Assembly: GCA_964601935.1 (NCBI GenBank) | Contig: CAZROP010000001.1 | Location: 185,867-249,866, forward strand | From: an uncultured Candidatus Saccharibacteria bacterium | GTDB taxonomy: Bacteria; Patescibacteriota; Minisyncoccia; Phycocordibacterales; UBA1006 | DNA length: 64,000 bases | Direction: 5' to 3' | Shown here: piece after piece, positions 20,728-63,438 of the stretch | Numbering within the stretch: position 1 is the first letter of the stretch | Layout: each line of letters opens with the position of its first letter | The notes under the pieces: generated by a model | Databases searched by the model: none | Told to the model about the DNA's origin: nothing | What the model saw: only the letters and a program-made list of their open reading frames with translations | Program-made: the position numbers and the translations under genes

Positions 20728-23700
20728 TTACGCTGCTTCTTGTAATTCTTCTCTTCCTTGCTCATTCAATGGAACAACTTTTGTACCGCTAGTTCTTTTA
20801 CGAGATAAAAAGTCTTTGAAATCTCTACCATTTTTTATTCGATCGACATGACTCTTTATCTGTTCATTAGTAGTACTCATTGATTCTACAACTTCTGGAG
20901 TAGTACTATTCTCCCGACCACGAGCTCTTCTTGCCAGCTGAGCTTGTATTTGCTCTGTAGTAGGACTTTTATTTTCTCTTGGTTTAGCATTTTCTATCCT
21001 TCTGCTCTGCCAAGAAGCTGTGGCTCTTTTTAGTGCAGGAGTAACGAATGCAGTACTTTGAAGCTGACCCTCCTCTTCTTTAGGTTTATCAAACACGCCA
21101 TCCCAGAAACTATCCCATCTATGTTCCTGTGTAAGGGTTTGAGATTCTGCGACGGGGGCTACATTTGCTTCTATTACACTTGATGTAGCAGAGGTTTGAT
21201 TGGTTTCTTCACCTGCAATAGGGGTATCAAACCCAAAGAATGAGGAATCATAACTCTGATTAGTAGTATTATTAATCGTCTGAGAGTTATTATCTTCAGC
21301 TTGCAGCCTATTACCTTGATTAGTATTATTAAGCTGTTCTCTATTATTTTCACCATCTCGAGCAAGAGAACGATCTCTCTGTAGAGTCCGCCTCTCATCA
21401 TTATCAGGCGTACGGCCTGGTTCTTGGTCTGGGTGTTTTTCCTTGTAGTCATCTGTCGGCCCCATAAATCGCTGGGCATGTATAGGTTGCACATGTATAT
21501 CAGTATCATATACATTAGGTGCTTCGTAGTCTATATCAAGGATTGGTTGATTCGAAAAGTTCTCACCCTGTATACGAGCCAACGAGCGTACATTGTACGG
21601 CATAGTATCTGAACCATCTCCCTCTAATACTTCTACTGCCAGTATCTGCCCTTTCAATTCGAATTTTCCATCTTCAGTCACATGAAGGAATTCAGAGTTA
21701 ACACCAGTATTCGGAATAAATGCCTTACCATTTTTATCAAATTCTATAAATACAGCACCTTTGTTACCGATACTATCACTTGTTACTAATTTTTCGCTTC
21801 CCTCGTAGAGCATTAACTTTATTTTTCCTTTTCCTACCATTTCTTTTATTTGATCTCCTGTCAGTTTATTACTACCAAATGTTGACTCATCGTTAAACAT
21901 GTCTGCAATCGACATTTCGTATCCCTTCACATTTCCATCAGCATCCCATATTACACCTGATCCATTTGGTCCTCCCCATTTTAGATCCAATTCATTGCGC
22001 GCAAATTCTTTGGTATCATAATCATAATAATTGTCCATTCGAACAGATTTGAATTCAGCTGGACGCTCTGCTCCATTATAAGAATCAAAATATGAACCTG
22101 GGACAGGTGTCTCTGTTATCGTGAATCCTTTCCCTGCTAATGCTTTCTGTATATCGTCCTGACCTATTACACCATCACCTGCGGCATCTGGTATAGAAAT
22201 GTTTACGCCATTCGGTCCTGTTAGTGCAACACCATTTCCCTGCTGCTCCAGACAGAACCCATCCGGTAGACGCACATCTGCAGATACCTTGCCATCTATA
22301 CCCTGGATGATAGAACTGTGAGACATGGTAGTCGTGCCTCCGCCTGTTATCAGATTTTTTAACTGCATCAGGAGTGTTGCCTTTTTCTCGGAATCTCGTT
22401 CTGTGAACCAACTTTCTACCAAACCCATCGTAGAATCATCTATCAATGCCCATATTTCAGCAGTTGCAATACCGAATGCAAATGATAGTGCAAATACGGC
22501 TGAACCTGTTATCGCTGCCTCTTTTGCGAGCATTGATTTCACCCCCCTCTTATGTTTAGAAATACTTTCTATCAACTCCTTTCTAGTTTTTGAAATCTCA
22601 GGATTTTCACGTGCATTTTGTAGAGCATTATTAAATTCATTACCAAGTTCTTTTTTTAATCCTGCACGTAGACGTGCCATTAGAACAGCAATTTCACGAT
22701 GTTGTGCTTCTACCTGACCCGGATCATACTGAATTAATTCTACCTTTTTAATATTACCTGACTTTATAAGATCTTCATAACGGATCAATAATTCCAGTTT
22801 TGATTCTAGGGGATACTCCTGACCAGCACGTAATTCGCTGATAATAGATTGTGCTGGTTGCAAATCCATGCTAAATTTTTCAAACTTTGCAGCAACTTTA
22901 TCATTACTATAGGTTTCTCCTGCAGCAGTGTTCTGGTAATACTGCTGTGCCTCGGTGGTTCTACGATTATACTGCGCTGATCCTGCGAATGCTCCACCTA
23001 TAACTGAACCTACGACTGGCACAGCTAATGTTGCTTCTGCTGCCTTTTTCGAAACTATTTTTGCGACTGATGCCGCAGCACCCGCGAGGACAGCCAGCGT
23101 TGTTCCATTAAACACTCTTGTGACTTTTATTTTTTCACACCATCTACCAAATCTACCTTTGTATTTCGATGATAACGAATGTTCTGCAATCGCTATTTTC
23201 AGAGAAATATGAAGTTCGTTTATATATCTAGCTTTCTCATCAGCGCTCAAACCCTCAAATAGAGACTTGACTTCTCTGCAGACCACAAAGAAATTATGAG
23301 CAGTTATTGTTTCCTGACCACCTCCTTGGATTCTGCGTAGTGTATCGAGCTGCTGATTTACTAACTCCTGATACGTAATTGTTTGACCTGTGGGTACTTC
23401 TGATCTGAAACTATCGATATCTTCCTGAGATTTCAGAAATTCTATCAAAAATGTTCTGAGATTTTCTGATACCTGTGCCTGTCGAGTTTCATTATTATCT
23501 ACATTATAGACCTTTTCACCTGCGCTCAAGATACTATCGTCACCACTAATCACACGATCAGCTGCTGATTCGTACAGTGCACGTGTTCTTGCCTCGCCAT
23601 CATCCTCACCCAAAAACACATTACGCTGTTCTGCTGTTTCCCGTAGTGCAGCAACACGGTGTTTTGCCTGTCGATACTCATGAACTATTGCATTTTTAGC

Positions 23701-23871
23701 TCTTGTGAACTGTCGTGCGATCCAGTTCTTTTTTTCTGCTGACTGTTCCTGAGCCCCTAATCGTTCTGCTGCCAATTTACGAGCATACTGTCGTTGAATA
23801 TCAGTCACATCAGCAATACCTACATTAACTTCTGTAGGTATTTCTTCAAAACTTGTTTCTCTGAGCAACAT
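20728..23871 (-). CDS. giant membrane protein of unknown function (coiled-coil N-terminus, two Gly/Ala-rich TM anchors, extracytoplasmic domain, Q/N/T-rich tail)
   Basis: 1047-aa uninterrupted ORF. The TM segments are TLAVLAGAAASVAKIV...LAVPVVGSVIGGAFAGSA and ITGSAVFALSFAFGIATAEIWALI. Confidence 0.7.
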   Translation of the reverse strand: MLLRETSFEEIPTEVNVGIADVTDIQRQYARKLAAERLGAQEQSAEKKNWIARQFTRAKNAIVHEYRQAKHRVAALRETAEQRNVFLGEDDGEARTRALYESAADRVISGDDSILSAGEKVYNVDNNETRQAQVSENLRTFLIEFLKSQEDIDSFRSEVPTGQTITYQELVNQQLDTLRRIQGGGQETITAHNFFVVCREVKSLFEGLSADEKARYINELHISLKIAIAEHSLSSKYKGRFGRWCEKIKVTRVFNGTTLAVLAGAAASVAKIVSKKAAEATLAVPVVGSVIGGAFAGSAQYNRRTTEAQQYYQNTAAGETYSNDKVAAKFEKFSMDLQPAQSIISELRAGQEYPLESKLELLIRYEDLIKSGNIKKVELIQYDPGQVEAQHREIAVLMARLRAGLKKELGNEFNNALQNARENPEISKTRKELIESISKHKRGVKSMLAKEAAITGSAVFALSFAFGIATAEIWALIDDSTMGLVESWFTERDSEKKATLLMQLKNLITGGGTTTMSHSSIIQGIDGKVSADVRLPDGFCLEQQGNGVALTGPNGVNISIPDAAGDGVIGQDDIQKALAGKGFTITETPVPGSYFDSYNGAERPAEFKSVRMDNYYDYDTKEFARNELDLKWGGPNGSGVIWDADGNVKGYEMSIADMFNDESTFGSNKLTGDQIKEMVGKGKIKLMLYEGSEKLVTSDSIGNKGAVFIEFDKNGKAFIPNTGVNSEFLHVTEDGKFELKGQILAVEVLEGDGSDTMPYNVRSLARIQGENFSNQPILDIDYEAPNVYDTDIHVQPIHAQRFMGPTDDYKEKHPDQEPGRTPDNDERRTLQRDRSLARDGENNREQLNNTNQGNRLQAEDNNSQTINNTTNQSYDSSFFGFDTPIAGEETNQTSATSSVIEANVAPVAESQTLTQEHRWDSFWDGVFDKPKEEEGQLQSTAFVTPALKRATASWQSRRIENAKPRENKSPTTEQIQAQLARRARGRENSTTPEVVESMSTTNEQIKSHVDRIKNGRDFKDFLSRKRTSGTKVVPLNEQGREELQEAA

Positions 23872-30590: not shown

Positions 30591-33305
30591 CTAGGGTGCG
30601 CACAGGGTGTTCGCTCTATCACGAGTTAGGCTATCCCAAATACCAGGAGGCTCCTCTAGTCCGCGCGGCTGCATAATAGTGGTGTAGTTCTGTAGTTGGA
30701 AATCTTTTACTGCTTCTTCGGTTTTGGATTCAAAAGTGCCGGTGACTTCTATACTATAGCCTTGTTGTACTAGAAAGAGTTGTACTCGCTGGATCTCTGA
30801 AGTGTCAGTGCTATCACGGGTGAGTTCAGTGATAAATGGTGCCGAGCATGCCGATACGGACTGTTCGCCCAGGGCGACCTGTTCTATTGTCGATACGCGG
30901 GGTTCTGTATCGGGGATATCCAATTCCTGTAGCCCGGTACGCACTCGTACATCATTGAGGACTTTATTTGCTTTACCTCGACTGAATTTGAAGAAGTTGC
31001 CAGTAGCGTGACCTACTCCAGCCTGGATCAGAATATCGCTGTCGTTGTTCTGATAGGTGTTCACGGCCTGGGTAGTTTCAGGTCCGAAGTATCCATTCAC
31101 CTCGAGATCAGTGCCAAGATAGTAGTTGAGGAATTCTTGAATACGTTTTACTTCTTCAGGATAAGTTGGTCCGAGGTTCTGGTTCATGTCTTTGAGAAAT
31201 AGATACTCTTCCAGAGATTGTGGTAGCGGTTTGTTTGTGTTGAATGGGGATGTCTCTATCGTTTCTTTTGTTATAGAAGGCTGATTTTTTGATACCTCTT
31301 TGATACTTTCTTTTGTAGTTGTCGTTTTTATCGTGGTGTTCGTAGTCAGAGAAGGTACAGTAGTTGGTGTTTTTTCTGCTGTTGAACTTACCGCGGTGGT
31401 ACTTGATTTTGAAAGAGGATTGTAAGTATCTACGGAAGTAGCCAAAGCCAATCGAATCGAACCTCTGTCGAGAGCGGTACCTTGTGATAATGAATCGGAC
31501 AGAGTTCTGCTGTCTGTTATGAGTACACCGTCCATTGATCCGAGGATTGGTAGATTAAATGCATCAGAACTTTCCGGTATAAATCCTGTACTACCTGATG
31601 CTAATAATAGTAGGAGTGTAGCAATAGTCGCCTTTTTGACATGTTTTTTTGCTACCTGATGACGTACTTTTTTGTGAATCTGTTTATGTACCGGTATCGA
31701 TTTGTTTTCTGGTTTGCTACTGCTGAATAGTGCTTGTATGAGAGCTATTACAATAGTACTACCTAGTACTATTGCTCCTATGGATGCAAGGAGGAAGAGT
31801 AATTGGTTGATAGAGATATCAGTATACATATAGTAGGTCACTATTCGTGTATACATAACGTATCCACCGAGTGCGATACACCCTATCAGACCTATAAATA
31901 TAGTGAATAATAGGAAATTACTTGTAGGTTTTGTAGTATGTACCGATGTTGTGATTCGTTTCATACGCATAACGGTTGGTGTCCGCGTATCTTTGTGCTT
32001 CATAGATGCATACTGCCCCCATAATGTGCCCAGCATATAGAATAACCCTCCTATCATCAATGTGAATCCTATATCAGATAAAATATCTCCTGTTAGTGAC
32101 CAGGTATAGGGCAGCTTTTCGATTACATGTGCAGAAGAAGCACTGTACGCCTGAACATTTTGTACAAAGGGTACCACTAATGCTACAACAAATAAAACAT
32201 AGTTTGCGATATGGAGAGCCGCTGTTTCAGGGGATCGTGTGCTTCCTTTGTGTGCTTTATGATGGAGTAGTGTAGCAATACAGAGCACTGCCAAGAATCC
32301 TAGTGTTATAGGTAATAACTCATAAGTTTCTATAAATGTTCGTAGAGAGGTTTTCCAGTCTACGTTTTGCAGCGAACGTGTTTGTATAGCGTTTTCTTCT
32401 TCTGGTGTTGTTATGACTTTGGTGCCGAGTGCCAGACGTAATGGCTCTGTACTCTGTGTGTAATAATGATCGCCTGCTGGTGTGATAATAGTGGTAATGG
32501 ATGTTTCAGTATTAGGTAATAGAGATGCTAATACATCAGGAGTCAGTGATGCCATACGAAGCCTGTGCCCAGATAGGTTACTCGATTCAGAAATATATTG
32601 AACGGTTTCTCTATTTGCAGTAAAAGGAGTAATTTCTGATAGTGAAGGTAGCTCACCATTCTGTAGTGCATACGCGGAAGCAGGTATAAATACTAATGTA
32701 CATACTGCAACAGCAACTAATTTATACCAAGAGTTGGATAACTGCATTAATACTTGTGCAGTATTTTTGAATAGAGAGAAATCTTGTGAATACTTTAGGG
32801 GTCTACGTCTGTCAGGTTCTCCATCATCAAGACACAAGCCATCCTGTGGGCTCGATGAGCTGGAAACACATACTGCACGCTCTCCTGAATAGGAAGATGG
32901 TGTTGCAGATGTATTTCCGGTAGAAGCTATAAGGTATGGAGACTGGATATATGTTGATGTAGATACTGTGCGACCACTGCGTGTTGCAGTTTTTGGTGCT
33001 GTTGCATAAACATGACTGCGTTCCTGTCGGATACGACTAGAAAGAGTACGTGGAGATTTCGATGTGATAGTTGTACGAGAATCCATCAGAGAACTTTGTG
33101 TTTGCGCACGCTGCGATACTGCGCGCTTGAACTCACCAGAAATATCTTTCTTTTGTGCAGTAACCGTTGTGGCGCGATTCCATACCTGTACAATCGGTGA
33201 CGGAGTTGCAGCGTGTGTGAACTTCTGTGTCTTTGATCGTGCACGAGAAGTACGTACGGACGACTGGGTGTTCATATGAACATGAGAGAGAGTTGATGTG
33301 CTCAT
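30591..33305 (-). CDS. large polytopic membrane protein with two C-terminal peptidoglycan-binding (PG_binding_1-like) domains
   Basis: 904 aa with a Ser/Thr-rich N-terminus and ~8 TM spans. The C-terminal repeats are IQEFLNYYLGTDLEVNGYFGPETTQAVNTYQ and VQLFLVQQGYSIEVTGTFESKTEEAVKDFQ. Confidence 0.65.
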   Translation of the reverse strand: MSTSTLSHVHMNTQSSVRTSRARSKTQKFTHAATPSPIVQVWNRATTVTAQKKDISGEFKRAVSQRAQTQSSLMDSRTTITSKSPRTLSSRIRQERSHVYATAPKTATRSGRTVSTSTYIQSPYLIASTGNTSATPSSYSGERAVCVSSSSSPQDGLCLDDGEPDRRRPLKYSQDFSLFKNTAQVLMQLSNSWYKLVAVAVCTLVFIPASAYALQNGELPSLSEITPFTANRETVQYISESSNLSGHRLRMASLTPDVLASLLPNTETSITTIITPAGDHYYTQSTEPLRLALGTKVITTPEEENAIQTRSLQNVDWKTSLRTFIETYELLPITLGFLAVLCIATLLHHKAHKGSTRSPETAALHIANYVLFVVALVVPFVQNVQAYSASSAHVIEKLPYTWSLTGDILSDIGFTLMIGGLFYMLGTLWGQYASMKHKDTRTPTVMRMKRITTSVHTTKPTSNFLLFTIFIGLIGCIALGGYVMYTRIVTYYMYTDISINQLLFLLASIGAIVLGSTIVIALIQALFSSSKPENKSIPVHKQIHKKVRHQVAKKHVKKATIATLLLLLASGSTGFIPESSDAFNLPILGSMDGVLITDSRTLSDSLSQGTALDRGSIRLALATSVDTYNPLSKSSTTAVSSTAEKTPTTVPSLTTNTTIKTTTTKESIKEVSKNQPSITKETIETSPFNTNKPLPQSLEEYLFLKDMNQNLGPTYPEEVKRIQEFLNYYLGTDLEVNGYFGPETTQAVNTYQNNDSDILIQAGVGHATGNFFKFSRGKANKVLNDVRVRTGLQELDIPDTEPRVSTIEQVALGEQSVSACSAPFITELTRDSTDTSEIQRVQLFLVQQGYSIEVTGTFESKTEEAVKDFQLQNYTTIMQPRGLEEPPGIWDSLTRDRANTLCAP

Positions 33306-41716: not shown

Positions 41717-41839
41717 GTGACGTTAGTGCTTTATGTGTGAATCAAATTTGTTTAGATATGAGTTTCACCATACCTTATTTATAGATTATGTCAAATTATT
41801 GAACCAGGATATATGGCTATCATGCTATACTGCATCCAT

Positions 41840-42742
41840 ATGAAATTTGTATCATGGAATGTGAACGGTCTGCGTGCCGTGACGAAAAAAGGATTCTTCC
41901 CCACCTACGTCGCGAGTGGAGAATATGATGTGATATTTCTAATGGAGACAAAATCAGAAATCGGTCAGCTATCTGATGAGGTAATATCGATTTCGGGATA
42001 CTCGTTCATGTTGCAGCCGAGTACCTACAAAAAAGGATACGCAGGTGTCGGCATGTATGTCCGCGATGGATTGTCGGCTGTGATCGAGACCGGATTTTCT
42101 CATGACTGTGCATTGCATGACGAGGAGCGCATTATGACTGTATCACTCGTACATCCTATTCACGGACGGATTGCGATCACAGGAGCATACTTCCCGAACG
42201 GTGCGCGCGGCAGTGTAAAGAGGGGTGGAGATGTAGAGACTAATAATCGAGTTTCTGATGAGTCAAACCCCCTCCCGACCTCCCCCTTTTCTAGTGGGAG
42301 GAGCTTGAAAACAGCTGCAGACTTCGGATCGAACCTGGAATACAAGCTGGCATTTTTTACCGAGTTTCAGAATCACATGGAGCACCTGGAGAAATCCCAT
42401 GATCATGTACTAGTTTGTGGTGACATCAATATTGCACACCACCCTATTGATCTGGCACGACCCGAGTCGAACAAAAATTCTGTAGGATTCTTGCCGGTCG
42501 AGCGTGCGCGACTAGATGCATGGCATAGCGATGGGTGGAGAGATATATGGCGAGAACTGCATAGCGATGAAGTGGTATACAGTTGGTGGGATGTTATCAG
42601 TGGTGCGCGTGCACGCAATGTTGGATGGCGTATTGATGCATGGTGGATGCGGCAGTCATCACTACCGATCATCGACGAGATCAGATACGATACAGAACAA
42701 ATGGGTTCGGATCATTGTCCTGTGGTGGTAATTCTGAAATAA
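41840..42742 (+). CDS. xth: exodeoxyribonuclease III (Xth/ExoA family) carrying a ~40-codon internal insertion
   Basis: It has an MKFVSWNVNGLRA start, LMETK, GDINIAH and GSDHCPVVV. The insertion lies between FPNG and LEYKL (nt 42212-42331). Confidence 0.9.
   Translation: MKFVSWNVNGLRAVTKKGFFPTYVASGEYDVIFLMETKSEIGQLSDEVISISGYSFMLQPSTYKKGYAGVGMYVRDGLSAVIETGFSHDCALHDEERIMTVSLVHPIHGRIAITGAYFPNGARGSVKRGGDVETNNRVSDESNPLPTSPFSSGRSLKTAADFGSNLEYKLAFFTEFQNHMEHLEKSHDHVLVCGDINIAHHPIDLARPESNKNSVGFLPVERARLDAWHSDGWRDIWRELHSDEVVYSWWDVISGARARNVGWRIDAWWMRQSSLPIIDEIRYDTEQMGSDHCPVVVILK
42264..42303 (+). repeat. solo copy of the DUF559-cassette terminal repeat inside the xth coding sequence
   Basis: caaaccccctcccgacctcccccttttctagtgggaggag matches caaaccccacctcaatcctcccctttgctaggggaggaa (57236-57275) at roughly three quarters of positions by eye. 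Confidence 0.6.
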
Positions 42743-50732: not shown

Positions 50733-52802
50733 ATGAGTGAACGCACGCCCGGAGAAGAAATCCTAGAAAACGCCGAGAATACTCCAGAAAGATTAATAAA
50801 TGCTCATATATTGAACGATATAGAGTTACAGTATGCATTACAGTTATTCCCTGTAGAAACTCTAGAATCTGTGCAAGAGAAAAGTCACGAAAAGATAGTA
50901 GATGAGCGAGTAACAATGCTGAACCGTTCGTGCATGTATGACGAGGTCAAGCCAGGAGAGGAGGGTATGCATCGACCAGAGCGTGCATATACTCCATTTT
51001 CGAAACTACGGTTCATAGCACCTCCTACTGAAGAGGTTGCAAATGAACTGCGATCACTGGGGGTGGTTCATGTGAAACAGTCTCTCGAGGCAACGAGACA
51101 GGCCCAAGATCTAGCACAATTTACCGAAATGGTCGAATGGTACGAAACACAAGAGCAGGCAAAACAGGAATGTTTAGAAGTTCTTCGTTCTTTACAAGAG
51201 AGCGCACAAGATGATTTACATGAGCTGGCTTTGCTCTTTCAGAAGATAGAGACTTCTTCTTCGGAGGCTGGTCACATGAATTACGAGCACGCGCAGAAAT
51301 GGGCGTACCAACTACTGATGGGAGGGCCTCTCACGAACAGTGTACAGTCGAGCGGAGGAGGACTGCGCGATACCTTCGAGGCATACATTTCTAATGTAGA
51401 GAACCTAAGGCAGCCGGCATACTACACCGATTTGTTGGTTGAAATACAAAATCACCAACGTGCTATAGAAATACTGAAGAGTTTGCCAGCGGCTACAGAC
51501 CCAGGATTGCAGGAGAAGTATAGAATCTGGCGGCAGATGAATACTCTTTTCAGAGGAGATGTAGAGGATAAGGTCTATACGTTCATGACCGAACAGGTAG
51601 GATATAATCAGACAAAACAGGGTATCCACATCCACAATCGTGTACCCAAAAGCTATCAACCTACACGTGGTCAGTATTCTCCTAAATACGGGTACAATGA
51701 TGCAAAGAATAAGCAACAAGAACTAATGCCTCGGGTGGAGCTTGCTCTGGAGAGCGCAACTCGATTCGTCGATACGACAGTCGCTCGTGCGCAGATGGAG
51801 TACGAAGTACTGCATCTGCCCGCGACAGAAACAAAATACGTTTCACCTGATGACGCGGCGAAGTATCTGAAACACGAGAAAGACAAGCGAGTAATAGAAG
51901 CACGAAAAGCAGCTGAGTTATTAGGTCGTAGACCAGAGACGTTTGCGCGGACTGTGGTTGATGCGGGGAACTTTACAGGAGAAGTCAGCTTTACTCTGAG
52001 GCCAAGAGATATGTTACCTGATATACATGCTGAGATACAAGAGCTAGAGAGACAAATCGTGGATTTGGGGATCGAGATAGGTAAATTGACGAAATCGGCT
52101 GATTCCATGAAAGATTCATTGGAAAAGGGTAGGGCGTATGATAGTTCGTCTAAACTTTATAAATTGGTTGTGTCACCTCCTATTGTTAACACAACCTGGA
52201 CTGAGCATGGCAACAAGCTTGATGATATAAAAAACTTAACATCAAAAAAGACAGACATAGAGCAAAATCTCGAGGTATTGCAAGCAGAATTAGAAACACA
52301 ATCACGACACCAATCTAATATATCGTTTGACTGGGAAAATGAGTGTATAAATATGATTACTAGAGGTGAATACCTGGGTTATGATATGAAACAGGGCGAA
52401 GTATCGGATATAGGGGCAGATTTTGATGTGGTGGCGTTCAAAAGATCACTATATAATCGTCTGTCTGGTGGTAGTAAGTCTATTTCAGAATTAGAACTGC
52501 GTAATTTGCAGAATGATATTGTTACATTCCTAGGCTTGGTATCCCGATGGGGGTTGTCGCCTGCAGAACAAACAGCATTAGACCATTATGATTCTGTGTT
52601 GCAGCGAGTCAGTAAAGGCGAATCGCGTACTCCAGAATGGTTACAGGGCGTGCCATTTGATGCGAAACAGGTGTACGAACATGCACTCGATGTTGTAATG
52701 CCTGCACAGGAAGCAGCTTTGGGTGTTGTAGATGGAAATGTATCTGTTGAAGTAGTGGCTGACGCGTATATGCGGTTGTACGGCGATAATAATGAAAAGT
52801 AA
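50733..52802 (+). CDS. large soluble hypothetical protein (coiled-coil-rich ORFan)
   Basis: 689-aa uninterrupted ORF with no TM segment and no recognised motif. It has its own terminator at 52825-52861. Confidence 0.55.
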   Translation: MSERTPGEEILENAENTPERLINAHILNDIELQYALQLFPVETLESVQEKSHEKIVDERVTMLNRSCMYDEVKPGEEGMHRPERAYTPFSKLRFIAPPTEEVANELRSLGVVHVKQSLEATRQAQDLAQFTEMVEWYETQEQAKQECLEVLRSLQESAQDDLHELALLFQKIETSSSEAGHMNYEHAQKWAYQLLMGGPLTNSVQSSGGGLRDTFEAYISNVENLRQPAYYTDLLVEIQNHQRAIEILKSLPAATDPGLQEKYRIWRQMNTLFRGDVEDKVYTFMTEQVGYNQTKQGIHIHNRVPKSYQPTRGQYSPKYGYNDAKNKQQELMPRVELALESATRFVDTTVARAQMEYEVLHLPATETKYVSPDDAAKYLKHEKDKRVIEARKAAELLGRRPETFARTVVDAGNFTGEVSFTLRPRDMLPDIHAEIQELERQIVDLGIEIGKLTKSADSMKDSLEKGRAYDSSSKLYKLVVSPPIVNTTWTEHGNKLDDIKNLTSKKTDIEQNLEVLQAELETQSRHQSNISFDWENECINMITRGEYLGYDMKQGEVSDIGADFDVVAFKRSLYNRLSGGSKSISELELRNLQNDIVTFLGLVSRWGLSPAEQTALDHYDSVLQRVSKGESRTPEWLQGVPFDAKQVYEHALDVVMPAQEAALGVVDGNVSVEVVADAYMRLYGDNNEK

Positions 52803-52968: not shown

Positions 52969-55047
52969 ATGACATCACCAGAAAATACTGTTCCACAAAG
53001 AGATCCGATTCCAGGTGTAGGACATCCGGACGGGCTTTTGCCTGAGGAACAGGATTGGTGGAACGCACTACAGCGAGAAAAAGCGTCTCTAGCGCAAAAT
53101 GAGGGTATGGTATTGTCGCCTGTGATAGCACAATCTTCGCGTAGTTGGGATTCAGTTCAGATCCCGAAAGGTCGTAGAGAAGGCGGGCGATCTGCATCTA
53201 CTCTCGAAACATTGCGAACCAAAGGGGTTCATTCAGGCTCTGCGCTGGAACAAAAGATCTTAAATTCAGTTAGCGCTCCTACGAGTCCTATTACCTGGGA
53301 AGCAGTTGTTGCGACAAGAGCTCGATTAACTCCTCGATTAGAACAGGCTTTGGCAGCAGCAGATCCGCACCTGGCGTATGTATACGAGAGGTCACTGTCT
53401 CGTTCAGCCGCGAATATTACCTCGAACGATACATCAGCACGAACTGCAAAAATCATACCAATAGGCCAACCTCTAGGGGTAAGTTTGCGTGAGGCGGCGC
53501 TTGTAGATGACCAGGATGGTATCGAGATGCCTCAGATGCAGATTGCTTCGGTAGCAGCATCTGCCGATGTACCCGATGTAGAAACAGTCGGCGAGCCTGT
53601 TGCACCAGCGGCAGTAGCACCAGAGGTACATTCTGATGAGCCTATTTCTCTGCAGGAATTGGTTGATAGGGTAAACAGAAATGTATCAACTGTACAGGAG
53701 TCTCTGGATCTTGCAATAGAGCCTGTTGCACCAGCAATAGAAGAAGACCATAACTGGGCAGAACAGGTGCATCTATCAACTGAACGGTATTCTAGTACAC
53801 TAGAATCTGCGTACAATGAAGCATATTTGAATCTTCATAGAGGGGCGCATTGCAGTTGGTTATCGAATTCTACACATAGAGAAACATTACTCAATCAGGA
53901 GTGTCAGATAGCGCGTCGTGAATTGGTACTGGCTCTCGTGAATCAACGCCGGCAGCAGAATAACGGCGTACTCAGTCGTGCTGACCTGATTCAGATAGAA
54001 CAGAGCGTGGTACAGCAAGAGCGTATCACATTGGATACTCTTGGACAGCAGTATGCGCAACACGCAGACATGCGCATGGTTCGTAATGTTCCAGAATTGG
54101 CAAATATTGCGCGTGCTCGCGGTGCAGCAGTGATGGAACGAGGCAGACAAGGTGTCACACGTGTAACAGGTATGTTGTCGAGATTATGGACTAGAACTGC
54201 AGGGCAGAGTGATACCGTACAGAGAGCACAAGAATCCATGACGGCACACAGTCGTCGCGTGCGCGGTTGGGTGGATAGGCGATTGGGATCAGAGCGAGTT
54301 GCACAGATGCAGCATGTAGCGGTGCGTATTGCTGTACCTACTGTATTTACCATTGCTACGGGTGGAGCACTGCTGCCGGTGATAGCAGGTGCAACAGTGG
54401 CTACGGCTACGGGTGCTGGTATTGATGCCGGATATCGTGCAGTCACTAGGTCGCAGAATCGTGCCGACCAGAGCATACCCATTGCTCCTGAAAATGTAGA
54501 CGCAATGTTAGTTGATGCGCAACAGGAAGCGGCAATTAGGAATCGGGAGCGACGTATTGCGCGCTGGGTGTCTACCATTACATCCTCTCTCGTGGGAATA
54601 GTAACAGGGCATTGGACAGCAGATGCGATGCAGGCTCACACTAATACGCCAACATCTGGGCCTGCACCGAAACCAACGCAGCCTATTATCGAAAAACCAC
54701 CCATCCCATTTATAGAACACACTGTTGCTATTCAAAATGGGTCAGGCGAAGGGTTTACTCAGGCGGTTAATCGCTTATTATCAGTGACGCCAACAGATCA
54801 AGTGCCAGCATTGATTACTGACTTCGCACGAGTACATAATGTACCTATCGTTAACGGTCATTATCAGATGACTCCAGAACAGGCGCGAGCGTTTGCCGAA
54901 CAGGTACGTGCAATCGATACATTCGGTCGTTCAATCATTATGCAGCCGGGTGATACAGTAGGATTCGATGCGGAAGGACAGCTGGTACATACACATGCAG
55001 GAGTGAGCCGCGCAGTAACAGGCGCATTACGCGGGAAATGGATGTAG
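52969..55047 (+). CDS. large membrane protein of unknown function (same architecture as the 1047-aa protein)
   Basis: 692 aa. It has RRVRGWVDRRL, a Gly/Ala-rich TM hairpin (IAVPTVFTIATGGALLPVIAGATVATATGAGIDAG), a second TM (WVSTITSSLVGIVTGHW) and a C-terminal domain. Confidence 0.65.
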   Translation: MTSPENTVPQRDPIPGVGHPDGLLPEEQDWWNALQREKASLAQNEGMVLSPVIAQSSRSWDSVQIPKGRREGGRSASTLETLRTKGVHSGSALEQKILNSVSAPTSPITWEAVVATRARLTPRLEQALAAADPHLAYVYERSLSRSAANITSNDTSARTAKIIPIGQPLGVSLREAALVDDQDGIEMPQMQIASVAASADVPDVETVGEPVAPAAVAPEVHSDEPISLQELVDRVNRNVSTVQESLDLAIEPVAPAIEEDHNWAEQVHLSTERYSSTLESAYNEAYLNLHRGAHCSWLSNSTHRETLLNQECQIARRELVLALVNQRRQQNNGVLSRADLIQIEQSVVQQERITLDTLGQQYAQHADMRMVRNVPELANIARARGAAVMERGRQGVTRVTGMLSRLWTRTAGQSDTVQRAQESMTAHSRRVRGWVDRRLGSERVAQMQHVAVRIAVPTVFTIATGGALLPVIAGATVATATGAGIDAGYRAVTRSQNRADQSIPIAPENVDAMLVDAQQEAAIRNRERRIARWVSTITSSLVGIVTGHWTADAMQAHTNTPTSGPAPKPTQPIIEKPPIPFIEHTVAIQNGSGEGFTQAVNRLLSVTPTDQVPALITDFARVHNVPIVNGHYQMTPEQARAFAEQVRAIDTFGRSIIMQPGDTVGFDAEGQLVHTHAGVSRAVTGALRGKWM

Positions 55048-56568: not shown

Positions 56569-56639
56569 GCGGTCATAGTTTATTGGTAAAACACGTCCTT
56601 GCCAAGGATGAGAGCGGAGTTCGATTCTCCGTGGCCGCA
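56569..56639 (+). tRNA. tRNA-Gly (anticodon GCC)
   Basis: Acceptor gcggtca/tggccgc, D stem gttt/aaac, anticodon stem cgtcc/ggatg with loop ttGCCaa, T arm cggag-ttcgatt-ctccg. A terminator hairpin follows at 56646-56685. Confidence 0.9.
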
Positions 56640-56796
56640 CAAATAACAAGAAAAAACGCGACCTCAGAAGCGTTTTTTCTTGTATATTTTGCGGAAACCA
56701 CCACGGAGAATTGAACCGGGGTCGCGAAATACTCTGCGAATATGGGCGTAAGCGAATACCGAGTATAGATATTTTGTTGGCCGCACACTGGTTCTG

Positions 56797-56836
56797 TTCC
56801 CTCCCCTCGCAAAGGGGAGAGTTAGGGTGGGGTTTG
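56797..56836. repeat. left terminal inverted repeat of the DUF559 cassette
   Basis: ttccctcccctcgcaaaggggagagttagggtggggtttg. Its reverse complement matches 57236-57275 at ~33 of 40 positions. It contains the internal hairpin ctcccct/aggggag. Confidence 0.75.
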
Positions 56837-56876
56837 ATTACTCACGAGCATTATATTAGAGTAGCAAGTATATTGT

Positions 56877-57302
56877 ATGGCTATTTTTACGAAACAGAAC
56901 TCTGCCTATTTGGAAAAACGCAGGCACTTGCGAATCAATATGACTCCAGAAGAGCGTACACTTTGGTACTATCTAAAGCATCAGCAAACAGGATATAAAT
57001 GGCGCAGGCAATACAGTGTTGATAATTATATTGTTGACTTTGCTTGTATACAGCAACGTCTAATTATAGAGATTGACGGCGGGGATCATTTGATGAAGCA
57101 AGAATACGATGCAGTCCGCCAAGAGTATATTCAATCTTTAGGGTGGTGTGTACTCAGGTTTGGAAACAATGAAGTGCGAGAACAACTAGAAAGTGTTGTT
57201 AGTAGGATATACGAGTTATTGTATCAACTGTACGACCAAACCCCACCTCAATCCTCCCCTTTGCTAGGGGAGGAACCCCGAACACCGAAACCAGAAATAT
57301 AG
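56877..57302 (+). CDS. DUF559 (Vsr-like / PD-(D/E)xK) endonuclease-domain protein
   Basis: 141 aa with MTPEERTLWYYLK...YKWRRQYSVDNYIVDFACIQQRLIIEIDGGDH...GWCVLRFGNNEV. Confidence 0.85.
   Translation: MAIFTKQNSAYLEKRRHLRINMTPEERTLWYYLKHQQTGYKWRRQYSVDNYIVDFACIQQRLIIEIDGGDHLMKQEYDAVRQEYIQSLGWCVLRFGNNEVREQLESVVSRIYELLYQLYDQTPPQSSPLLGEEPRTPKPEI
57236..57275. repeat. right terminal inverted repeat of the DUF559 cassette (inside the ORF 3' end)
   Basis: ccaaaccccacctcaatcctcccctttgctaggggaggaa. Confidence 0.75.
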
Positions 57303-57944: not shown

Positions 57945-58235
57945 AATCCTACCAATTGCAACACCTTGTGAGCTTTATTGTAAGCTCACAAGGTGTTTTG
58001 TCTACATTGTTCCAATGGTATCTAGTGCCACGTGAAACGGAGGGATAGTGAGGAGGGTTCGGGTAGGGTGAATGGGTAATTGGGCAGAAATGTACACTTG
58101 ACATATATACACTCAAATGCGATAATATTTGGTAATTTGTACGGATCGTTTCTATCTGTAGGACAGTCCAAACAAGGCTTGAAAATATTTCCAAAACCGT
58201 ATCAGGTGATGAGCCTGGTCACAATACTGATCGCC

Positions 58236-61209: not shown

Positions 61210-63438
61210 CTATTGGCGGACCTTGGTCTTATCGTTAGAACTCCTGCCTATTTCATGGATCCAATTGAGCATCCGTTGGCGGCGTGTGAGAGGTGCTTCT
61301 GCTAGTGTGTCAGGATTCTGGATCCGTTCTTGGATCCGTCGTTTCAGTGTTGTTAATGCAGCATTGTAGTCTTCTCCCTCATTCAACATTCGGAAGAATT
61401 CGATAAAATCATTCGGTTGTGCGTACTGAATGCCGTAACGGTCTCCTGCATCACGCTCGCTGTCCGTCGAGTTCTCCTGGGTCTGCTCTTTTATATTCTC
61501 GTAACCTCGGTTGGTTAGAATAGGTGCTAGTTCTTGTAGCACGAGCACTGACCACAGTTTTCTGTCAGAGAATGTCCGGTGCCAGGTTGTAATAGATAGA
61601 ACATAATTCAGCAGAGCACCCAAGAGCGCTTCTAATTGTTCAGCGGCCTTTGCTCTTGTCCAAAAGGAATTGTTGCAGGTAGTTGCAGGTAGGACCGTGA
61701 TACTCCTACTAGCTTCCAACTTTTCCGCAATATACTCCTCAATTCGGAATACCCACTGCTCGTGTTCCCAGAACCGATACTCTTTGAGCAACAGTATGAG
61801 CGTAGAGAGACTGGTAATTATAGAAATGATTCCTATCGTCATGCAGAAGTACATATACCAGGCAGGAACTTCTGTGTCAGACAGAACCCTCATCGCATAC
61901 TGAGTCACTAGGATGCTTCCAATGAATCCAATAAACACTATTCTTCTTACTTCATATACAAAATAGCGTCTTCCCATTCGGTGACTTTTGATCATAATCT
62001 GAGTAACCCATAATGTGGCGGCAGCCAGAATGATAATGATTGTTCCACTGGGAGACAGTATAAATCCGTGGACCAGTGCTATCGCCATGGTTGCTGCACA
62101 GGGAATGAATATGGTGACCAGTGCAATCATCGGGTCCTTCTTCCAGTTCACTAGTTTGTCTACACCCCGTGCTAGCATATAGGCAATGATTGTAGCAATG
62201 GTGAAGCTGATAACCCCAGGGATGCCAACGTCCATAGTCAGAACCAGACCTGTCCATACTGCAGGTGCTCCTACCAGCACCACTGTCAGGAGCATGATGC
62301 CGAGTACTGCGAAAGTGGCGCTAGCTAGGGCCCAGGCATGCGCCTTGGCCACTGTCCGTGCTGCTTTGCGTTCCTCATGCAGGTTGTAGTTCAATTCTGC
62401 AACTTCTATTAAGCAGGCTGCTGCACTTTCTGCTACAATTTCCCCGATATCATTTCTATTGAGCAATAGTTCTACCCACGCCGATAAATCAGCGCACTCT
62501 ATATACTGCAGTGTGTGAGAGCACTCATGCGAACTCAAAGCTGTCGCGATCTCCTCCAGTTTCTGGATTTCCTCGGTCGTGATAGTAGGCGCATACTTCT
62601 TCGTCAGGACTAATGCCCAATGGTTCCGTCCTTGGAAACGTTCATCGCAAGTTGCTATTCGGTAGAGGACTTGTGCAAGTTGCTTTACCGTTTCAACAGG
62701 TACGGTGCTCATCCTGTTCGTGTTCAGCCTGATTCTGTAGTGCGGCATAGTTAATGCCTCTGCCAGTTCGTACTTCATCTTGAGCATCCTTCGCCCTGGG
62801 AAAAACCCATGCTGGTTCAGCAGTCTTGTGGTTGCCCAGAGCGATGCTGCGCCAGCGAGATGCGCTAGGATTAGAATCCATATACCTATGCCACTCCCCT
62901 GGATACTACTGATCAATATAGCACCTGCAGATATCATGAGCATTAACATAGTGCATGCTACTATAAACCAATAGTAGTATTCCCCCAATCCGTAACGTTG
63001 TTTGCCATAGCGATGGATCGCTATGGCTGCAACGTAGGTCGCGATACCCATACCTGTTACAATCAGTCCTGCTCCAATCCAGGGCATAGTGTGCATCATG
63101 AACGTCAAGTCATGCATCCAGCCAGACTGGTAGGTATTCAGTAACGGTAGTACTATCCAGTGCCAGAGCAGGCTCAGGGCTGCGGTTACGTAGATCAGTT
63201 CTTGTACGTCCGTGACCCAGAATGGATCTTGGAATTTTACTTTGCGCTTCAGTCCGGCATAGCCGATACTGGCAATTGTTGCAGTAGTAATCGCAGCAGA
63301 TGCTGCGGACAGTCCTAATAGTCCCCATAGGAAAACTCCTATGATTGTCGCAATAATACCTGCGACAATTGCCAGTGCGATTGCAAACGCGCTGGCTGGA
63401 CTAGGACTGTCAATCATGGAGTCCATCAACTTCTTCAT
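61210..63438 (-). CDS. large polytopic membrane protein built from an internal duplication (TM bundle plus soluble domain, twice)
   Basis: 742-aa ORF. RNHWALVLTKKYAPTIT (aa ~271-287) matches RKLWSVLVLQELAPILT (aa ~626-642). QYIECADLSAWVELLLNRND matches QYAQPNDFIEFFRMLNEGED. Confidence 0.6.
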   Translation of the reverse strand: MKKLMDSMIDSPSPASAFAIALAIVAGIIATIIGVFLWGLLGLSAASAAITTATIASIGYAGLKRKVKFQDPFWVTDVQELIYVTAALSLLWHWIVLPLLNTYQSGWMHDLTFMMHTMPWIGAGLIVTGMGIATYVAAIAIHRYGKQRYGLGEYYYWFIVACTMLMLMISAGAILISSIQGSGIGIWILILAHLAGAASLWATTRLLNQHGFFPGRRMLKMKYELAEALTMPHYRIRLNTNRMSTVPVETVKQLAQVLYRIATCDERFQGRNHWALVLTKKYAPTITTEEIQKLEEIATALSSHECSHTLQYIECADLSAWVELLLNRNDIGEIVAESAAACLIEVAELNYNLHEERKAARTVAKAHAWALASATFAVLGIMLLTVVLVGAPAVWTGLVLTMDVGIPGVISFTIATIIAYMLARGVDKLVNWKKDPMIALVTIFIPCAATMAIALVHGFILSPSGTIIIILAAATLWVTQIMIKSHRMGRRYFVYEVRRIVFIGFIGSILVTQYAMRVLSDTEVPAWYMYFCMTIGIISIITSLSTLILLLKEYRFWEHEQWVFRIEEYIAEKLEASRSITVLPATTCNNSFWTRAKAAEQLEALLGALLNYVLSITTWHRTFSDRKLWSVLVLQELAPILTNRGYENIKEQTQENSTDSERDAGDRYGIQYAQPNDFIEFFRMLNEGEDYNAALTTLKRRIQERIQNPDTLAEAPLTRRQRMLNWIHEIGRSSNDKTKVRQ

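What the first reader, a model, noticed from the sequence alone, without database searches (positions are those of the whole stretch)
56778..57302. DUF559 endonuclease gene framed by ~40-bp terminal inverted repeats: a possible selfish cassette next to tRNA-Gly
The DUF559 (Vsr-like nuclease fold) ORF at 56877..57302 is bracketed by two repeats. The left one is ttccctcccctcgcaaaggggagagttagggtggggtttg (56797-56836). The right one is ccaaaccccacctcaatcctcccctttgctaggggaggaa (57236-57275). They are inverted copies of each other, matching at ~33 of 40 positions.

Each arm carries its own small hairpin (ctcccct/aggggag). The right arm supplies the ORF's C-terminal tail (PPQSSPLLGEEPR). The cassette begins 10 nt after a 10-nt duplicate of the tRNA-Gly 3' end (56778-56787).

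A degenerate third arm-like sequence lies at ~58044-58075 (gaggagggttcgggtagggtgaatggg). A clear solo copy lies inside xth and is reported separately. An endonuclease gene carried between inverted repeats, with solo repeats elsewhere, resembles a nuclease-associated mobile or MITE-generating element. As far as I know no transposition mechanism is established for DUF559.
Basis: partly seen in the sequence, partly recalled or inferred. Interest (0 to 1): 0.55.

Follow-up and report, generated by a model that had tools for sequence, protein, structure and literature searches.

The report
DUF559 nuclease gene between triplex-repeat arms
A small nuclease gene of unknown function sits between two inverted copies of a known but unexplained bacterial repeat (BoxC/PIT/"triplex motif"); the same compact gene-plus-arms unit recurs across many bacterial phyla, which suggests this nuclease family may be the missing partner of those repeats.

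Summary
The core observation holds. Arms 56800-56836 and 57237-57273 are 37 nt and 86% complementary, and they bracket an intact DUF559 gene. A third copy lies in frame inside xth. The proposed "third arm" at 58044-58075 is no better than chance.

The arms are variants of a known repeat, called BoxC, PIT or TM (intrastrand triplex motif). Each has a C-box, a loop, G-box1, a 3-nt spacer, and a G-box2 that mirrors G-box1.

The arrangement is general.
- Of 76 assessable DUF559 loci from many phyla, 57 have flanking inverted arms, against 2 of 73 controls.
- In three pairs of related units, homology stops at the outer ends of the arms and the flanks are unrelated. The unit is therefore discrete, about 440-500 bp (window 56798-57276).
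- Gene-less inverted arm pairs (42-93 nt apart) and solo arms also occur. Near-identical ~82-bp minis sit in unrelated contexts. xth orthologues carry an in-frame pair where the window keeps one arm.

The best reading is a compact nuclease-plus-repeat element, analogous to REP/RAYT. Nuclease action on the arms is inferred, not shown. The tRNA-Gly adjacency is incidental.

I found no paper linking DUF559 to these repeats. The main TM study reported finding no mobility gene near them.

The parts
56798..57276 (+). Whole unit: left arm, short leader, DUF559 gene, right arm (about 479 bp)
   Evidence: Homology with the closest related unit (L003, 65% aa) runs from the left arm to the right arm, and the flanks are unrelated. 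The same boundary behaviour is seen in L013/L022 and L060/L071.
56799..56836 (+). Left arm, triplex-motif type. C-box 56799-56807; loop 56808-56812; G-box1 56813-56821; spacer TTA 56822-56824; G-box2 56825-56833; then TTG.
   Evidence: 8 of 9 mirror/triplex-compatible triads at a 3-nt spacer. Hairpin -7.0 kcal/mol.
56877..57302 (+). DUF559 (Vsr-like / EDxHD-type PD-(D/E)XK) nuclease ORF, 141 aa. The domain is residues 14-115 (56916-57221). The last ~21 residues are read-through of the right arm and flank.
   Evidence: PF04480 E 5.5e-35. PDB 3HRL E 1.1e-22. All family-invariant residues are present: E65, D67, G68, H71, D78, R81, R94.
57237..57274 (-). Right arm, an inverted copy of the left arm. 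On the minus strand: C-box 57274-57266; loop 57265-57261; G-box1 57260-57252; spacer 57251-57249; G-box2 57248-57240.
   Evidence: 9 of 9 triads. Hairpin -9.9 kcal/mol, z -3.45.
42264..42301 (-). Solo arm of the same family, in frame inside xth (ORF 41813-42742). It is the remnant of an inverted gene-less arm pair that is still intact in xth orthologues.
   Evidence: 9 of 9 triads. Orthologues P0123/L086 and P0124/L087 carry both arms at the same site, and ordinary Xth proteins lack the insert.
56569..56640 (+). tRNA-Gly(GCC). This is neighbouring context only, not part of the unit.
   Evidence: tRNA adjacency is absent from related loci.
56778..56787 (+). 10-nt duplicate of the tRNA-Gly 3' end, 11 nt upstream of the left arm. 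It probably marks a separate small rearrangement at the tRNA.
   Evidence: An inverted T-arm fragment lies at 56701-56716 (I5). The Logan contig L001 ends at window position 56786.

Best explanation
The region 56798-57276 is one copy of a compact nuclease-plus-repeat element. It consists of an intact DUF559 (Vsr-like, EDxHD-type) endonuclease gene whose two ends are inverted copies of a BoxC/PIT/TM-type repeat.

Each arm is a hairpin (C-box, loop, G-box1) followed after 3 nt by a G-box2 that mirrors G-box1. This is the architecture that folds into an intrastrand purine-motif triplex in single-stranded DNA.

Shown here:
- The arms plus gene form a discrete unit that occurs in unrelated genomic contexts and in many phyla.
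- The two arms of a unit evolve in concert.
- The same arm family also exists as short gene-less inverted pairs and as solo copies. One of these is the remnant inside xth in this window.

Inferred:
- The DUF559 nuclease recognises and cuts the folded or paired arms, or gene-less arm pairs.
- A PD-(D/E)XK nuclease cannot re-ligate DNA. Spread would therefore occur by host repair or recombination that copies an arm-bounded unit into the break. This is homing-like, using the roughly 40-nt arms as homology.
- The relationship would be functionally analogous to REP/REPIN repeats and their RAYT gene.
- In some lineages the unit is simply inherited vertically.
For: - The inverted repeat and hairpins are real and non-random.
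- Generality: of 76 assessable DUF559 loci from Proteobacteria, Patescibacteria, Chloroflexota, Melainabacteria, Elusimicrobiota, Spirochaetota, Bacteroidota and others, 57 have a flanking inverted repeat with score >=30, against 2 of 73 displaced controls. 59 have C-box hairpins on both sides. Hairpin density is 3.95/kb in the flank zones and 0.20/kb elsewhere. The scan found 247 hairpins against 8 in shuffled loci.
- Many database homologues carry N-terminal 'PSPLAGEGG' and C-terminal 'PSPARGEG' tails. These are translated arms.
- Discrete unit: homology starts and stops at the outer ends of the arms, with unrelated flanks, in window/L003, L013/L022 (83% nt) and L060/L071 (82% nt; MAGs assigned to different phyla).
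- Arm architecture: at a fixed 3-nt spacer, G-box2 has G opposite G in 89% of cases and A/T opposite A in 77%. Other registers give 21-32%. A perfect mirror relation holds in 88 of 190 arms, against 17 for a direct relation and 14 for swapped arms.
- Full and miniature forms: the distance from a '+' arm to the next '-' arm is bimodal. 16 pairs are 42-93 nt apart and 37 pairs are 342-501 nt apart.
- A metagenome scan with the window's arm type gave 1 full unit, 5-6 gene-less pairs and several solos. L093, L095 and L097 are near-identical ~82-bp minis in unrelated flanks.
- Insertion into a gene: xth orthologues at 61-67% identity carry an in-frame inverted arm pair at one site, and other Xth proteins lack it.
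- Concerted evolution of the two arms: the loops are identical in 16 of 60 units, against 0.8 expected for random pairing.
- The nuclease is intact and of the fold used by the homing endonuclease I-Bth0305I (PMC3239194, PMC3384342).
- TM loci are hypervariable between E. coli strains and no mobility gene had been found near them (PMC4666352).
Against: - No biochemical or genetic evidence links DUF559 to the arms. Cleavage of the arms is pure inference.
- No empty or occupied polymorphism was found for this locus, or for any orthologous site examined. The Neisseria loci and the Burkholderiales loci L018/L031/L036/L049 keep the unit at the same syntenic site. That looks like stable vertical inheritance.
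- No target-site duplication is visible.
- Arm box sequence does not co-vary with protein divergence (Spearman -0.03, Mantel not significant). There is therefore no sign of co-evolving sequence-specific recognition.
- About a quarter of DUF559 loci lack recognisable arms.
- E. coli has 23 TM copies but only one atypically placed copy near its single DUF559 gene, ycjD (PMC4666352).
- Miniature pairs are not obvious deletion derivatives of full units; the spacers are unrelated.
- Triplex formation was not detected in vivo by Holder et al. (PMC4666352).
Confidence: 0.5

Rival explanations
1. Passenger model. The BoxC/TM arms are moved or generated by some other, unidentified process, such as replication slippage or recombination at triplex/hairpin DNA, or an unknown enzyme. 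DUF559 is merely cargo trapped between two arms. It would be a host-beneficial repair or defence nuclease carried in a composite-element-like fashion, and it does not act on the arms.
For: - Gene-less pairs and solos far outnumber full units.
- E. coli has 23 TM copies with essentially no cassette-type DUF559 (PMC4666352).
- There is no arm-protein co-variation.
- Two arms about 1.5 kb apart enclose a different ORF in L094/L096, although those arms are dissimilar from each other.
Against: - The cargo is almost always the same small nuclease family, at a very constant distance from the arms. The downstream hairpin starts about 29-35 nt after the domain end in most loci.
- The enrichment at DUF559 flanks is 20-fold.
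- Random cargo capture would give diverse genes.
Confidence: 0.22
2. Host-gene model. DUF559 is an ordinary chromosomal nuclease gene, and the arms are cis-acting expression elements. They would act like REP sequences, as mRNA-stabilising 3' hairpins, insulators or autoregulatory operators, with no mobility of the unit.
For: - Syntenic, apparently vertical retention occurs in Burkholderiales and Neisseria.
- The right arm lies immediately after or over the stop codon, as expected for a 3' stabiliser.
- ycjD is conserved in E. coli.
Against: - Homology between related units ends exactly at the arm ends, in unrelated contexts and across phyla.
- Identical minis without any gene are dispersed in unrelated flanks.
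- An arm pair is inserted inside the xth coding sequence.
- The mirror (triplex) relation of G-box2 to G-box1 has no role in an RNA hairpin, and purine-motif triplexes do not form in RNA (PMC4666352).
- PIT elements showed no promoter or terminator activity (cited in PMC4666352).
Confidence: 0.13
3. Invertible-segment model. The inverted arms serve as recombination sites that flip the DUF559 gene, as phase variation or a programmed inversion.
For: - 'DUF559 domain-containing protein' is enriched (odds ratio 14.3) among predicted programmed-inversion targets in Milman et al. (PMC9881135).
- Arm homogenisation could come from recombination between the inverted repeats.
Against: - No invertase or recombinase gene is seen beside the unit in the window.
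- Flipping a gene that carries its own leader between symmetric arms changes nothing obvious.
- Four Neisseria loci that are about 95% identical, and the L023/L048 pair, are collinear through the unit.
- The enrichment in that study is explained simply by the inverted arms overlapping annotated CDS ends, and it was not validated there.
Confidence: 0.05

Closest known systems
BoxC / PIT elements / TM (TMECO) intrastrand triplex motif repeats (Bergler 1992; Bachellier 1999; Hoyne & Maher 2000; Holder et al. 2015, PMC4666352)
   Same: - The arms have the same architecture: C-box, a 3-6 nt loop, G-box1, a 3-nt spacer, and a mirror G-box2.
- They occur as solos and as close inverted pairs.
- They are found across many bacteria.
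- Their loci are unstable.
- From the coordinates in Table 1 of that paper, four of the five E. coli pairs have the same inward G-box2 polarity as the DUF559 arms.
   Different: - The window arms do not match the strict E. coli consensus. They read CCTCCCCT / AGGGGAG / GGGTGGGG, where E. coli has CCCTCNCCC / GGGNGAGGG / GGGNGAGGG.
- The published work found no associated gene and no mobility function. Here the arms are the termini of a unit carrying a nuclease gene.
REP/REPIN repeats and their RAYT (REP-associated tyrosine transposase) genes, 'REPtrons'
   Same: - A usually low-copy nuclease gene is flanked by inverted copies of a short hairpin-forming repeat.
- The repeat is otherwise dispersed as inverted doublets and singlets.
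- Some lineages show vertical retention.
   Different: - The enzyme is a PD-(D/E)XK/Vsr-like nuclease, not an HUH Y1 transposase. It has no covalent intermediate and no strand-joining chemistry.
- The repeats have no GTAG tetranucleotide.
- The repeats have a third, triplex-compatible box.
- Copy numbers seen here are low.
Free-standing homing endonuclease genes of the EDxHD family (I-Bth0305I; PMC3239194, PMC3384342)
   Same: - The catalytic fold and motif are related: E65, D67, H71 and D78 are conserved in the DUF559 alignment.
- It is a small selfish-looking nuclease gene found in many unrelated contexts.
   Different: - I-Bth0305I is intron-encoded in a phage recA gene.
- It has a long N-terminal DNA-binding region.
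- It has no flanking inverted repeats.
- Homing is unproven for DUF559.
IS elements and their MITEs
   Same: - Terminal inverted repeats bound a single ORF.
- Shorter gene-less derivatives with the same ends are dispersed in the genome.
   Different: - No DDE, serine or tyrosine transposase is present.
- No target-site duplications were seen.
- The unit is only about 480 bp.
- The minis are not simple internal deletions of the full unit.
Rickettsia palindromic elements (RPE)
   Same: A palindromic repeat is inserted in frame within a protein-coding gene and is tolerated as extra peptide, as for the xth insert.
   Different: - The sequence family is different.
- RPEs have no known associated nuclease gene.

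Membership tests
DUF559 (Pfam PF04480; Vsr-like / EDxHD PD-(D/E)XK nucleases) | Significant match to the family profile over the whole domain | tested here: met
   E 5.5e-35, 120 bits against a cutoff of 20.6. Residues 14-115 match profile positions 6-108 of 109. PDB 3HRL E 1.1e-22.
DUF559 (Pfam PF04480; Vsr-like / EDxHD PD-(D/E)XK nucleases) | Conserved catalytic-type residues (E..D..H..D motif) | tested here: met
   E65, D67, G68, H71 and D78 are invariant across 35 aligned homologues and present in the window protein.
DUF559 (Pfam PF04480; Vsr-like / EDxHD PD-(D/E)XK nucleases) | Nuclease activity | not testable with these tools
   No biochemical data. Depositors call 3HRL only 'endonuclease-like protein'.
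BoxC / PIT / TM intrastrand triplex motif repeats | C-rich box, 3-6 nt loop and complementary G-rich box forming a hairpin | tested here: met
   All three window copies have 7-9 bp stems with 5-nt loops.
BoxC / PIT / TM intrastrand triplex motif repeats | A second G-rich box after a 3-nt spacer that mirrors G-box1 (G*G, A*A or T*A triads) | tested here: met
   Window left arm 8/9 triads, right arm 9/9, xth copy 9/9, all at a spacer of 3. Family-wide figures are 89% and 77% at spacer 3 only.
BoxC / PIT / TM intrastrand triplex motif repeats | Match to the strict E. coli TMECO consensus CCCTCNCCC N3-6 GGGNGAGGG N3 GGGNGAGGG | tested here: not met
   The window arms read CCCTCCCCT / AGGGGAGAG / GGGTGGGGT. 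They are a sequence variant of the class, not the E. coli subfamily (PMC4666352).
BoxC / PIT / TM intrastrand triplex motif repeats | Actual triplex formation | not testable with these tools
   Shown in vitro for E. coli oligonucleotides only, and not detected in vivo (PMC4666352).
REP / RAYT system (REPtron) | Gene encodes an HUH Y1 (IS200/IS605-like) transposase | tested here: not met
   The only Pfam hits are DUF559 and MTES_1575.
REP / RAYT system (REPtron) | Gene flanked by inverted copies of the repeat that is dispersed elsewhere as doublets and singlets | tested here: met
REP / RAYT system (REPtron) | Repeat carries the conserved GTAG (or CGTC) head | tested here: not met
   The arm sequences contain no such conserved tetranucleotide.
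Insertion sequence / MITE | Terminal inverted repeats at the exact ends of the mobile unit | tested here: met
   Homology between related units ends at the arm ends.
Insertion sequence / MITE | Recognised transposase | tested here: not met
Insertion sequence / MITE | Target-site duplication | tested here: not met
   No direct repeat abuts the arms in the window, L003, L013, L022, L060 or L071.
Homing endonuclease gene | Occupied and empty alleles of the same site, with cleavage of the empty allele | tested here: inconclusive
   No alternative context was found for the window locus. Syntenic groups all carry the unit. Cleavage is not testable here.
Programmed invertible segment | Both orientations present among close relatives, and a site-specific recombinase nearby | tested here: not met
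   Related Neisseria loci are collinear. No recombinase lies next to the unit in the window.

The most novel reading that the evidence does not exclude
DUF559 nucleases are the long-missing partner enzymes of the BoxC/PIT/TM triplex-motif repeats. On this reading they are structure-specific (hairpin/triplex) PD-(D/E)XK nucleases that cut folded arms or arm pairs and so drive copying of arm-bounded units and minis. That would be a second, mechanistically distinct REPIN/RAYT-like repeat-nuclease partnership, spread over more than ten bacterial phyla. It would give a function both to one of the commonest uncharacterised nuclease families and to an orphan repeat class known since the 1990s.
Probability: 0.35. 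Interest if true: 0.85.

Novelty: new variant of a known kind. Interest (0 to 1): 0.7.

Why it matters
BoxC/PIT/TM repeats have been known in E. coli and hundreds of other genomes for about 30 years. They have no known origin, function or mobilising enzyme. The most thorough study explicitly looked for mobility genes near them and found none (PMC4666352).

DUF559 is a very widespread nuclease family. It has a solved structure (3HRL) but no assigned function.

The two form one discrete unit across phyla. That turns both puzzles into a testable hypothesis: does this nuclease cut these arms? It also explains two other observations:
- DUF559 annotations carry odd 'PSPLAGEGG/PSPARGEG' tails.
- DUF559 scored as a 'programmed inversion' target (PMC9881135).

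If confirmed, it would be a repeat-spreading system built on a non-ligating nuclease and a triplex-forming DNA structure.

Tried and rejected
- Rfam: no family matches the arms, either in the window (E <= 1) or in 20 related loci.
- Third arm at 58044-58075: rejected as chance.
- tRNA-targeting or integrase-type island: rejected as a family property. Only 1 of 60 loci has any tRNA in about 6 kb.
- Sigma-70 promoter or intrinsic terminator in the arms: none found.
- Arm-protein co-variation (Mantel test): null.
- Empty site for this locus, via exact look-ups of the DUF559 protein and of the downstream 182-aa protein: only the same arrangement was found.
- E. coli as a polymorphism test bed: E. 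coli has only ycjD, which is not a canonical cassette.
- Plasmid carriage: rare, 46 of 72,556 records, and many of those are chromids or mislabelled chromosomes.
- Miniature pairs as internal-deletion derivatives of the full unit: comparing the L086 spacer with the L003 interior by eye showed no similarity.
- Wide arm pair in L094/L096 as an alternative-cargo unit: the two arms are dissimilar, so they are probably two independent solos.
- Literature: nine full-text searches found no paper connecting DUF559/ycjD/COG2852 with BoxC/PIT/TM repeats or with flanking inverted repeats. Subscription-only papers are not covered.
- Organism of the window: not determined.
Full report
**1. What is in the window**

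tRNA-Gly(GCC) lies at 56569-56640. ORF 56877-57302 (141 aa) is a DUF559 protein: PF04480, E 5.5e-35, domain at residues 14-115. Its nearest solved relative is 3HRL, an 'endonuclease-like protein', at E 1.1e-22. All residues that are invariant in an alignment of 35 homologues are present (E65, D67, G68, H71, D78, R81, R94). The gene therefore looks intact.

The ORF is bracketed by inverted arms at 56800-56836 and 57237-57273. They are 37 nt long, 86% complementary and 400 nt apart. Each arm has its own hairpin, CCTCCCCT-N5-AGGGGAG. This pattern occurs only at the arms, against 0.07 matches expected by chance. As single-stranded DNA the hairpins fold at -7.0 and -9.9 kcal/mol.

A purpose-built scan of the whole 64 kb finds exactly three such elements: the two arms, and a copy at 42264-42301 that lies in frame in xth.

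It matches 16 of 25 positions, which is within the range of the best chance match in shuffles (16-19). It has no C-box and does not fold.

The 10-nt duplicate of the tRNA 3' end at 56778-56787 is real.

**2. The arms are non-coding ends of a discrete unit**

The closest homologue is P0002 (65% aa) on contig L003. It is flanked by arms of the same type, with a core of 26 nt that is 100% complementary, but its ORF stops before the right arm. Aligning the two loci shows similarity from the left arm to the right arm and none outside.

The window unit is therefore about 56798-57276. The ORF's tail, PPQSSPLLGEEPRTPKPEI, is read-through of the arm and 27 nt of flank.

Two other pairs behave identically:
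- L013/L022 are 83% identical over about 503 bp.
- L060/L071 are 82% identical over about 441 bp, and the two MAGs are assigned to different phyla.

In both pairs homology begins and ends at the outer ends of the inverted arms, and the flanks are unrelated. No target-site duplication is visible in any of them.

**3. The arrangement is general for DUF559**

The alignment of database homologues already shows many with N-terminal 'PSPLAGEGG..GRVWG' and C-terminal 'TPHP..PSPARGEG' extensions. These are translated arms.

I fetched 80 DUF559 loci from one-genome-per-species contigs. They span Gamma-, Beta- and Alphaproteobacteria, Desulfobacterota, Bdellovibrionota, Chloroflexota, Melainabacteria, several Patescibacteria classes, Elusimicrobiota, Spirochaetota and Bacteroidota. 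Of the 76 loci with enough flank:
- 57 have a flanking inverted repeat scoring >=30, against 2 of 73 displaced controls (median 44 versus 19).
- 59 have a C-box hairpin on both sides.
- 68 have a C-box hairpin on at least one side.
- Hairpin density is 3.95/kb next to the gene and 0.20/kb elsewhere.
- The scan finds 247 hairpins in the loci against 8 in shuffled copies.

The downstream hairpin usually starts 29-35 nt after the domain end. The upstream hairpin ends 30-90 nt before the domain start.

About a quarter of loci lack arms. A few, such as L052 and L061, have the opposite arm polarity.

**4. What the arms are**

Every arm has the same plan: a C-box, a 3-6 nt loop, G-box1, a short spacer, and G-box2.

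A full-text search for the box sequences led to Holder et al. 2015 (PMC4666352). This is the BoxC repeat of E. coli, later called the PIT element and then the TM/TMECO intrastrand triplex motif. That paper reports the following:
- The consensus is CCCTCNCCC N3-6 GGGNGAGGG N3 GGGNGAGGG.
- E. coli MG1655 has 23 copies, five of them as close inverted pairs.
- The motif is present in more than 260 genomes.
- It forms a triplex in vitro as single-stranded DNA, but this was not detected in vivo.
- TM loci are unusually variable between strains.

[quoted passage not shown] The word 'endonuclease' does not occur in the paper.

My own test of the architecture on 182 unique arms used only a G-richness filter for G-box2. 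At a fixed 3-nt spacer, G-box2 carries G opposite G in 89% of positions and A/T opposite A in 77%. Every other register gives 21-32%. A perfect mirror relation holds in 88 of 190 arms, against 17 for a direct-repeat relation and 14 after swapping G-box2 between arms.

A mirror repeat is what a purine-motif triplex needs, and it has no meaning for an RNA hairpin. The window's three copies give 8/9, 9/9 and 9/9 compatible triads. They are sequence variants of the class and do not fit the strict E. coli consensus.

Rfam has no family for the arms.

**5. Full units, minis and solos**

The distance from a '+' arm to the next '-' arm in the loci is bimodal. 16 pairs are 42-93 nt apart and carry no gene. 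37 pairs are 342-501 nt apart and carry DUF559.

A metagenome scan with the window's own arm subtype returned 14 loci: one full unit (the L003 contig), five or six gene-less inverted pairs, and several solos. Three of the pairs (L093, L095, L097, all from one metagenome) are near-identical ~82-bp elements embedded in unrelated sequence.

The xth copy in the window is the remnant of such a pair. xth orthologues at 61-67% identity (P0123/L086, P0124/L087, P0125, P0126) carry an in-frame inverted pair at the same position. In L086 it reads arm, 43 nt, arm. L086 comes from the same sample as L003, and its arms differ from those of the L003 DUF559 unit by only one or two bases. The 80% orthologue has no recognisable arm. 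More distant Xth proteins lack the insert altogether.

The two arms of a unit resemble each other more than arms of other units do. The loops are identical in 16 of 60 units, and within one mismatch in 27 of 60. Random pairing gives 0.8 and 3.0.

**6. What does not fit a simple selfish-element story**

- Burkholderiales loci (L018/L031/L036/L049) share syntenic flanks with the unit at the same site. Several Neisseria species are collinear through it. The unit can therefore be stably inherited.
- Arm box sequence does not co-vary with protein divergence (r = -0.03).
- E. coli has a single DUF559 gene, ycjD, with only one TM copy (Holder's no. 9). That copy lies about 165 nt downstream, between ycjD and fabI, in atypical polarity.
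- DUF559 is rare on plasmids.
- I found no empty allele for the window locus.
- tRNA adjacency is not a family trait, at 1 of 60 loci. The duplicated tRNA end and the inverted T-arm fragment at 56701-56716 point to a separate small rearrangement at tRNA-Gly.

**7. Mechanism**

Shown:
- A discrete arm-gene-arm unit occurs in unrelated contexts.
- Gene-less pairs and solos of the same arm family are dispersed, including inside a coding gene.
- The arm architecture is triplex-compatible and conserved.
- The two arms of a unit evolve in concert.

Inferred:
- The DUF559 nuclease acts on the arms or on arm pairs. Recognition is probably by structure, given the lack of sequence co-variation.
- The enzyme's fold can cut DNA but cannot join it. 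Propagation would therefore go through host repair that copies an arm-bounded unit into the break.
- This works like homing, and in its genomic logic like REP/REPIN with RAYT. It is not a member of either family: it has no HUH transposase, no GTAG, and no demonstrated homing.

I put about 0.5 on this model. The rivals are DUF559 as passive cargo of independently spreading arms (0.22), a host gene with cis-regulatory arms (0.13), and an invertible segment (0.05). The enrichment of 'DUF559 domain-containing protein' among predicted programmed inversions (PMC9881135) is most simply explained by these inverted arms overlapping annotated CDS ends.

**8. Novelty**

DUF559 is a known family and the arm is a known repeat. 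The EDxHD/Vsr-like fold is known from the homing endonuclease I-Bth0305I (PMC3239194, PMC3384342).

Their systematic association as one unit appears in none of the papers I could search. It also runs against the explicit negative statement in the main TM paper. Subscription-only literature was not searchable, so prior description cannot be excluded.

I rate it a new variant of a known kind: a repeat family with a resident nuclease gene. The window copy is an ordinary member of that wider, apparently undescribed module.

Noticed in passing
window 56635-56787: Between tRNA-Gly and the unit there are three features: a 25-nt terminator-like hairpin (56635-56659 / 56670-56694), an inverted 16-nt copy of the tRNA T-arm (56701-56716, 94% complementary to 56619-56634), and the 10-nt direct duplicate of the tRNA 3' end. 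This looks like the scar of a rearrangement or integration at tRNA-Gly that is unrelated to the DUF559 unit.
   Followed up: partly
L001 position 1 (= window 56786): A Logan contig from SRR13208889 that carries the identical DUF559 gene ends exactly after the tRNA-end duplicate, 12 nt before the left arm. This suggests a branch in the assembly graph, and so strain variation, at that point.
   Followed up: no
L046 3595-4350 (Rouxiella silvae): Directly downstream of a DUF559 gene, an 88-bp unit is repeated 8.6 times in tandem. Each unit holds a complete '+' arm followed by a C-rich half-arm.
   Followed up: partly
L023 3442-5902 (Neisseria mucosa): A 280-bp unit containing an inverted arm pair with a 92-93 nt spacer is repeated 8.8 times next to the DUF559 gene. 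N. meningitidis (L048) aligns on both sides of this array, so the array appears to be expanded in N. mucosa.
   Followed up: partly
window 42230-42320 and xth orthologues (A5 columns about 150-235): The xth clade has a hypervariable in-frame insert of 20-90 residues at one surface position. The insert derives from an arm pair that decayed differently in each lineage. Exonuclease III evidently tolerates it.
   Followed up: yes
L085 1718-1740 (E. coli MG1655 about 1351217-1351239): The one TM/BoxC copy near E. coli's only DUF559 gene lies between fabI (envM) and ycjD. From memory, BoxC was first described next to envM, so it may have been found beside a DUF559 gene without the link being drawn.
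   Followed up: partly
L043 2910-2986 / 3323-3399; L033 2809-2932 / 3335-3458 (Legionella): The Legionella units have much longer inverted ends, 77 nt with 2 mismatches in L043 and about 124 nt in L033. They also carry an extra GC hairpin between G-box1 and G-box2. PMC12308824 reports DUF559-containing repeats as intragenomic recombination hotspots in L. pneumophila.
   Followed up: no
L094 157-1683 and L096 663-2189: Two arms about 1.5 kb apart enclose a 222-aa ORF of unknown function instead of DUF559. The two arms differ in sequence, so this is probably two solos rather than an alternative-cargo unit.
   Followed up: partly
L060 4740-5217 / L071 3400-3877: Besides the DUF559 unit, these two MAGs of different assigned phyla share a second isolated 478-bp segment (82% identical) that encodes a 164-aa ORF, with no arms. 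This could be another small horizontally moving gene, or a binning problem.
   Followed up: no
window, large ORFs (20728-23871, 30591-33305, 50733-52802, 52969-55047, 61210-63438, 128-1336): Six of eight large proteins tested have no NCBIfam match at E <= 1e-10. The closest relatives of Xth and DUF559 are unnamed metagenome proteins. The genome therefore belongs to a poorly described lineage; Patescibacteria is only a guess from the weak Xth and DUF559 neighbours.
   Followed up: no
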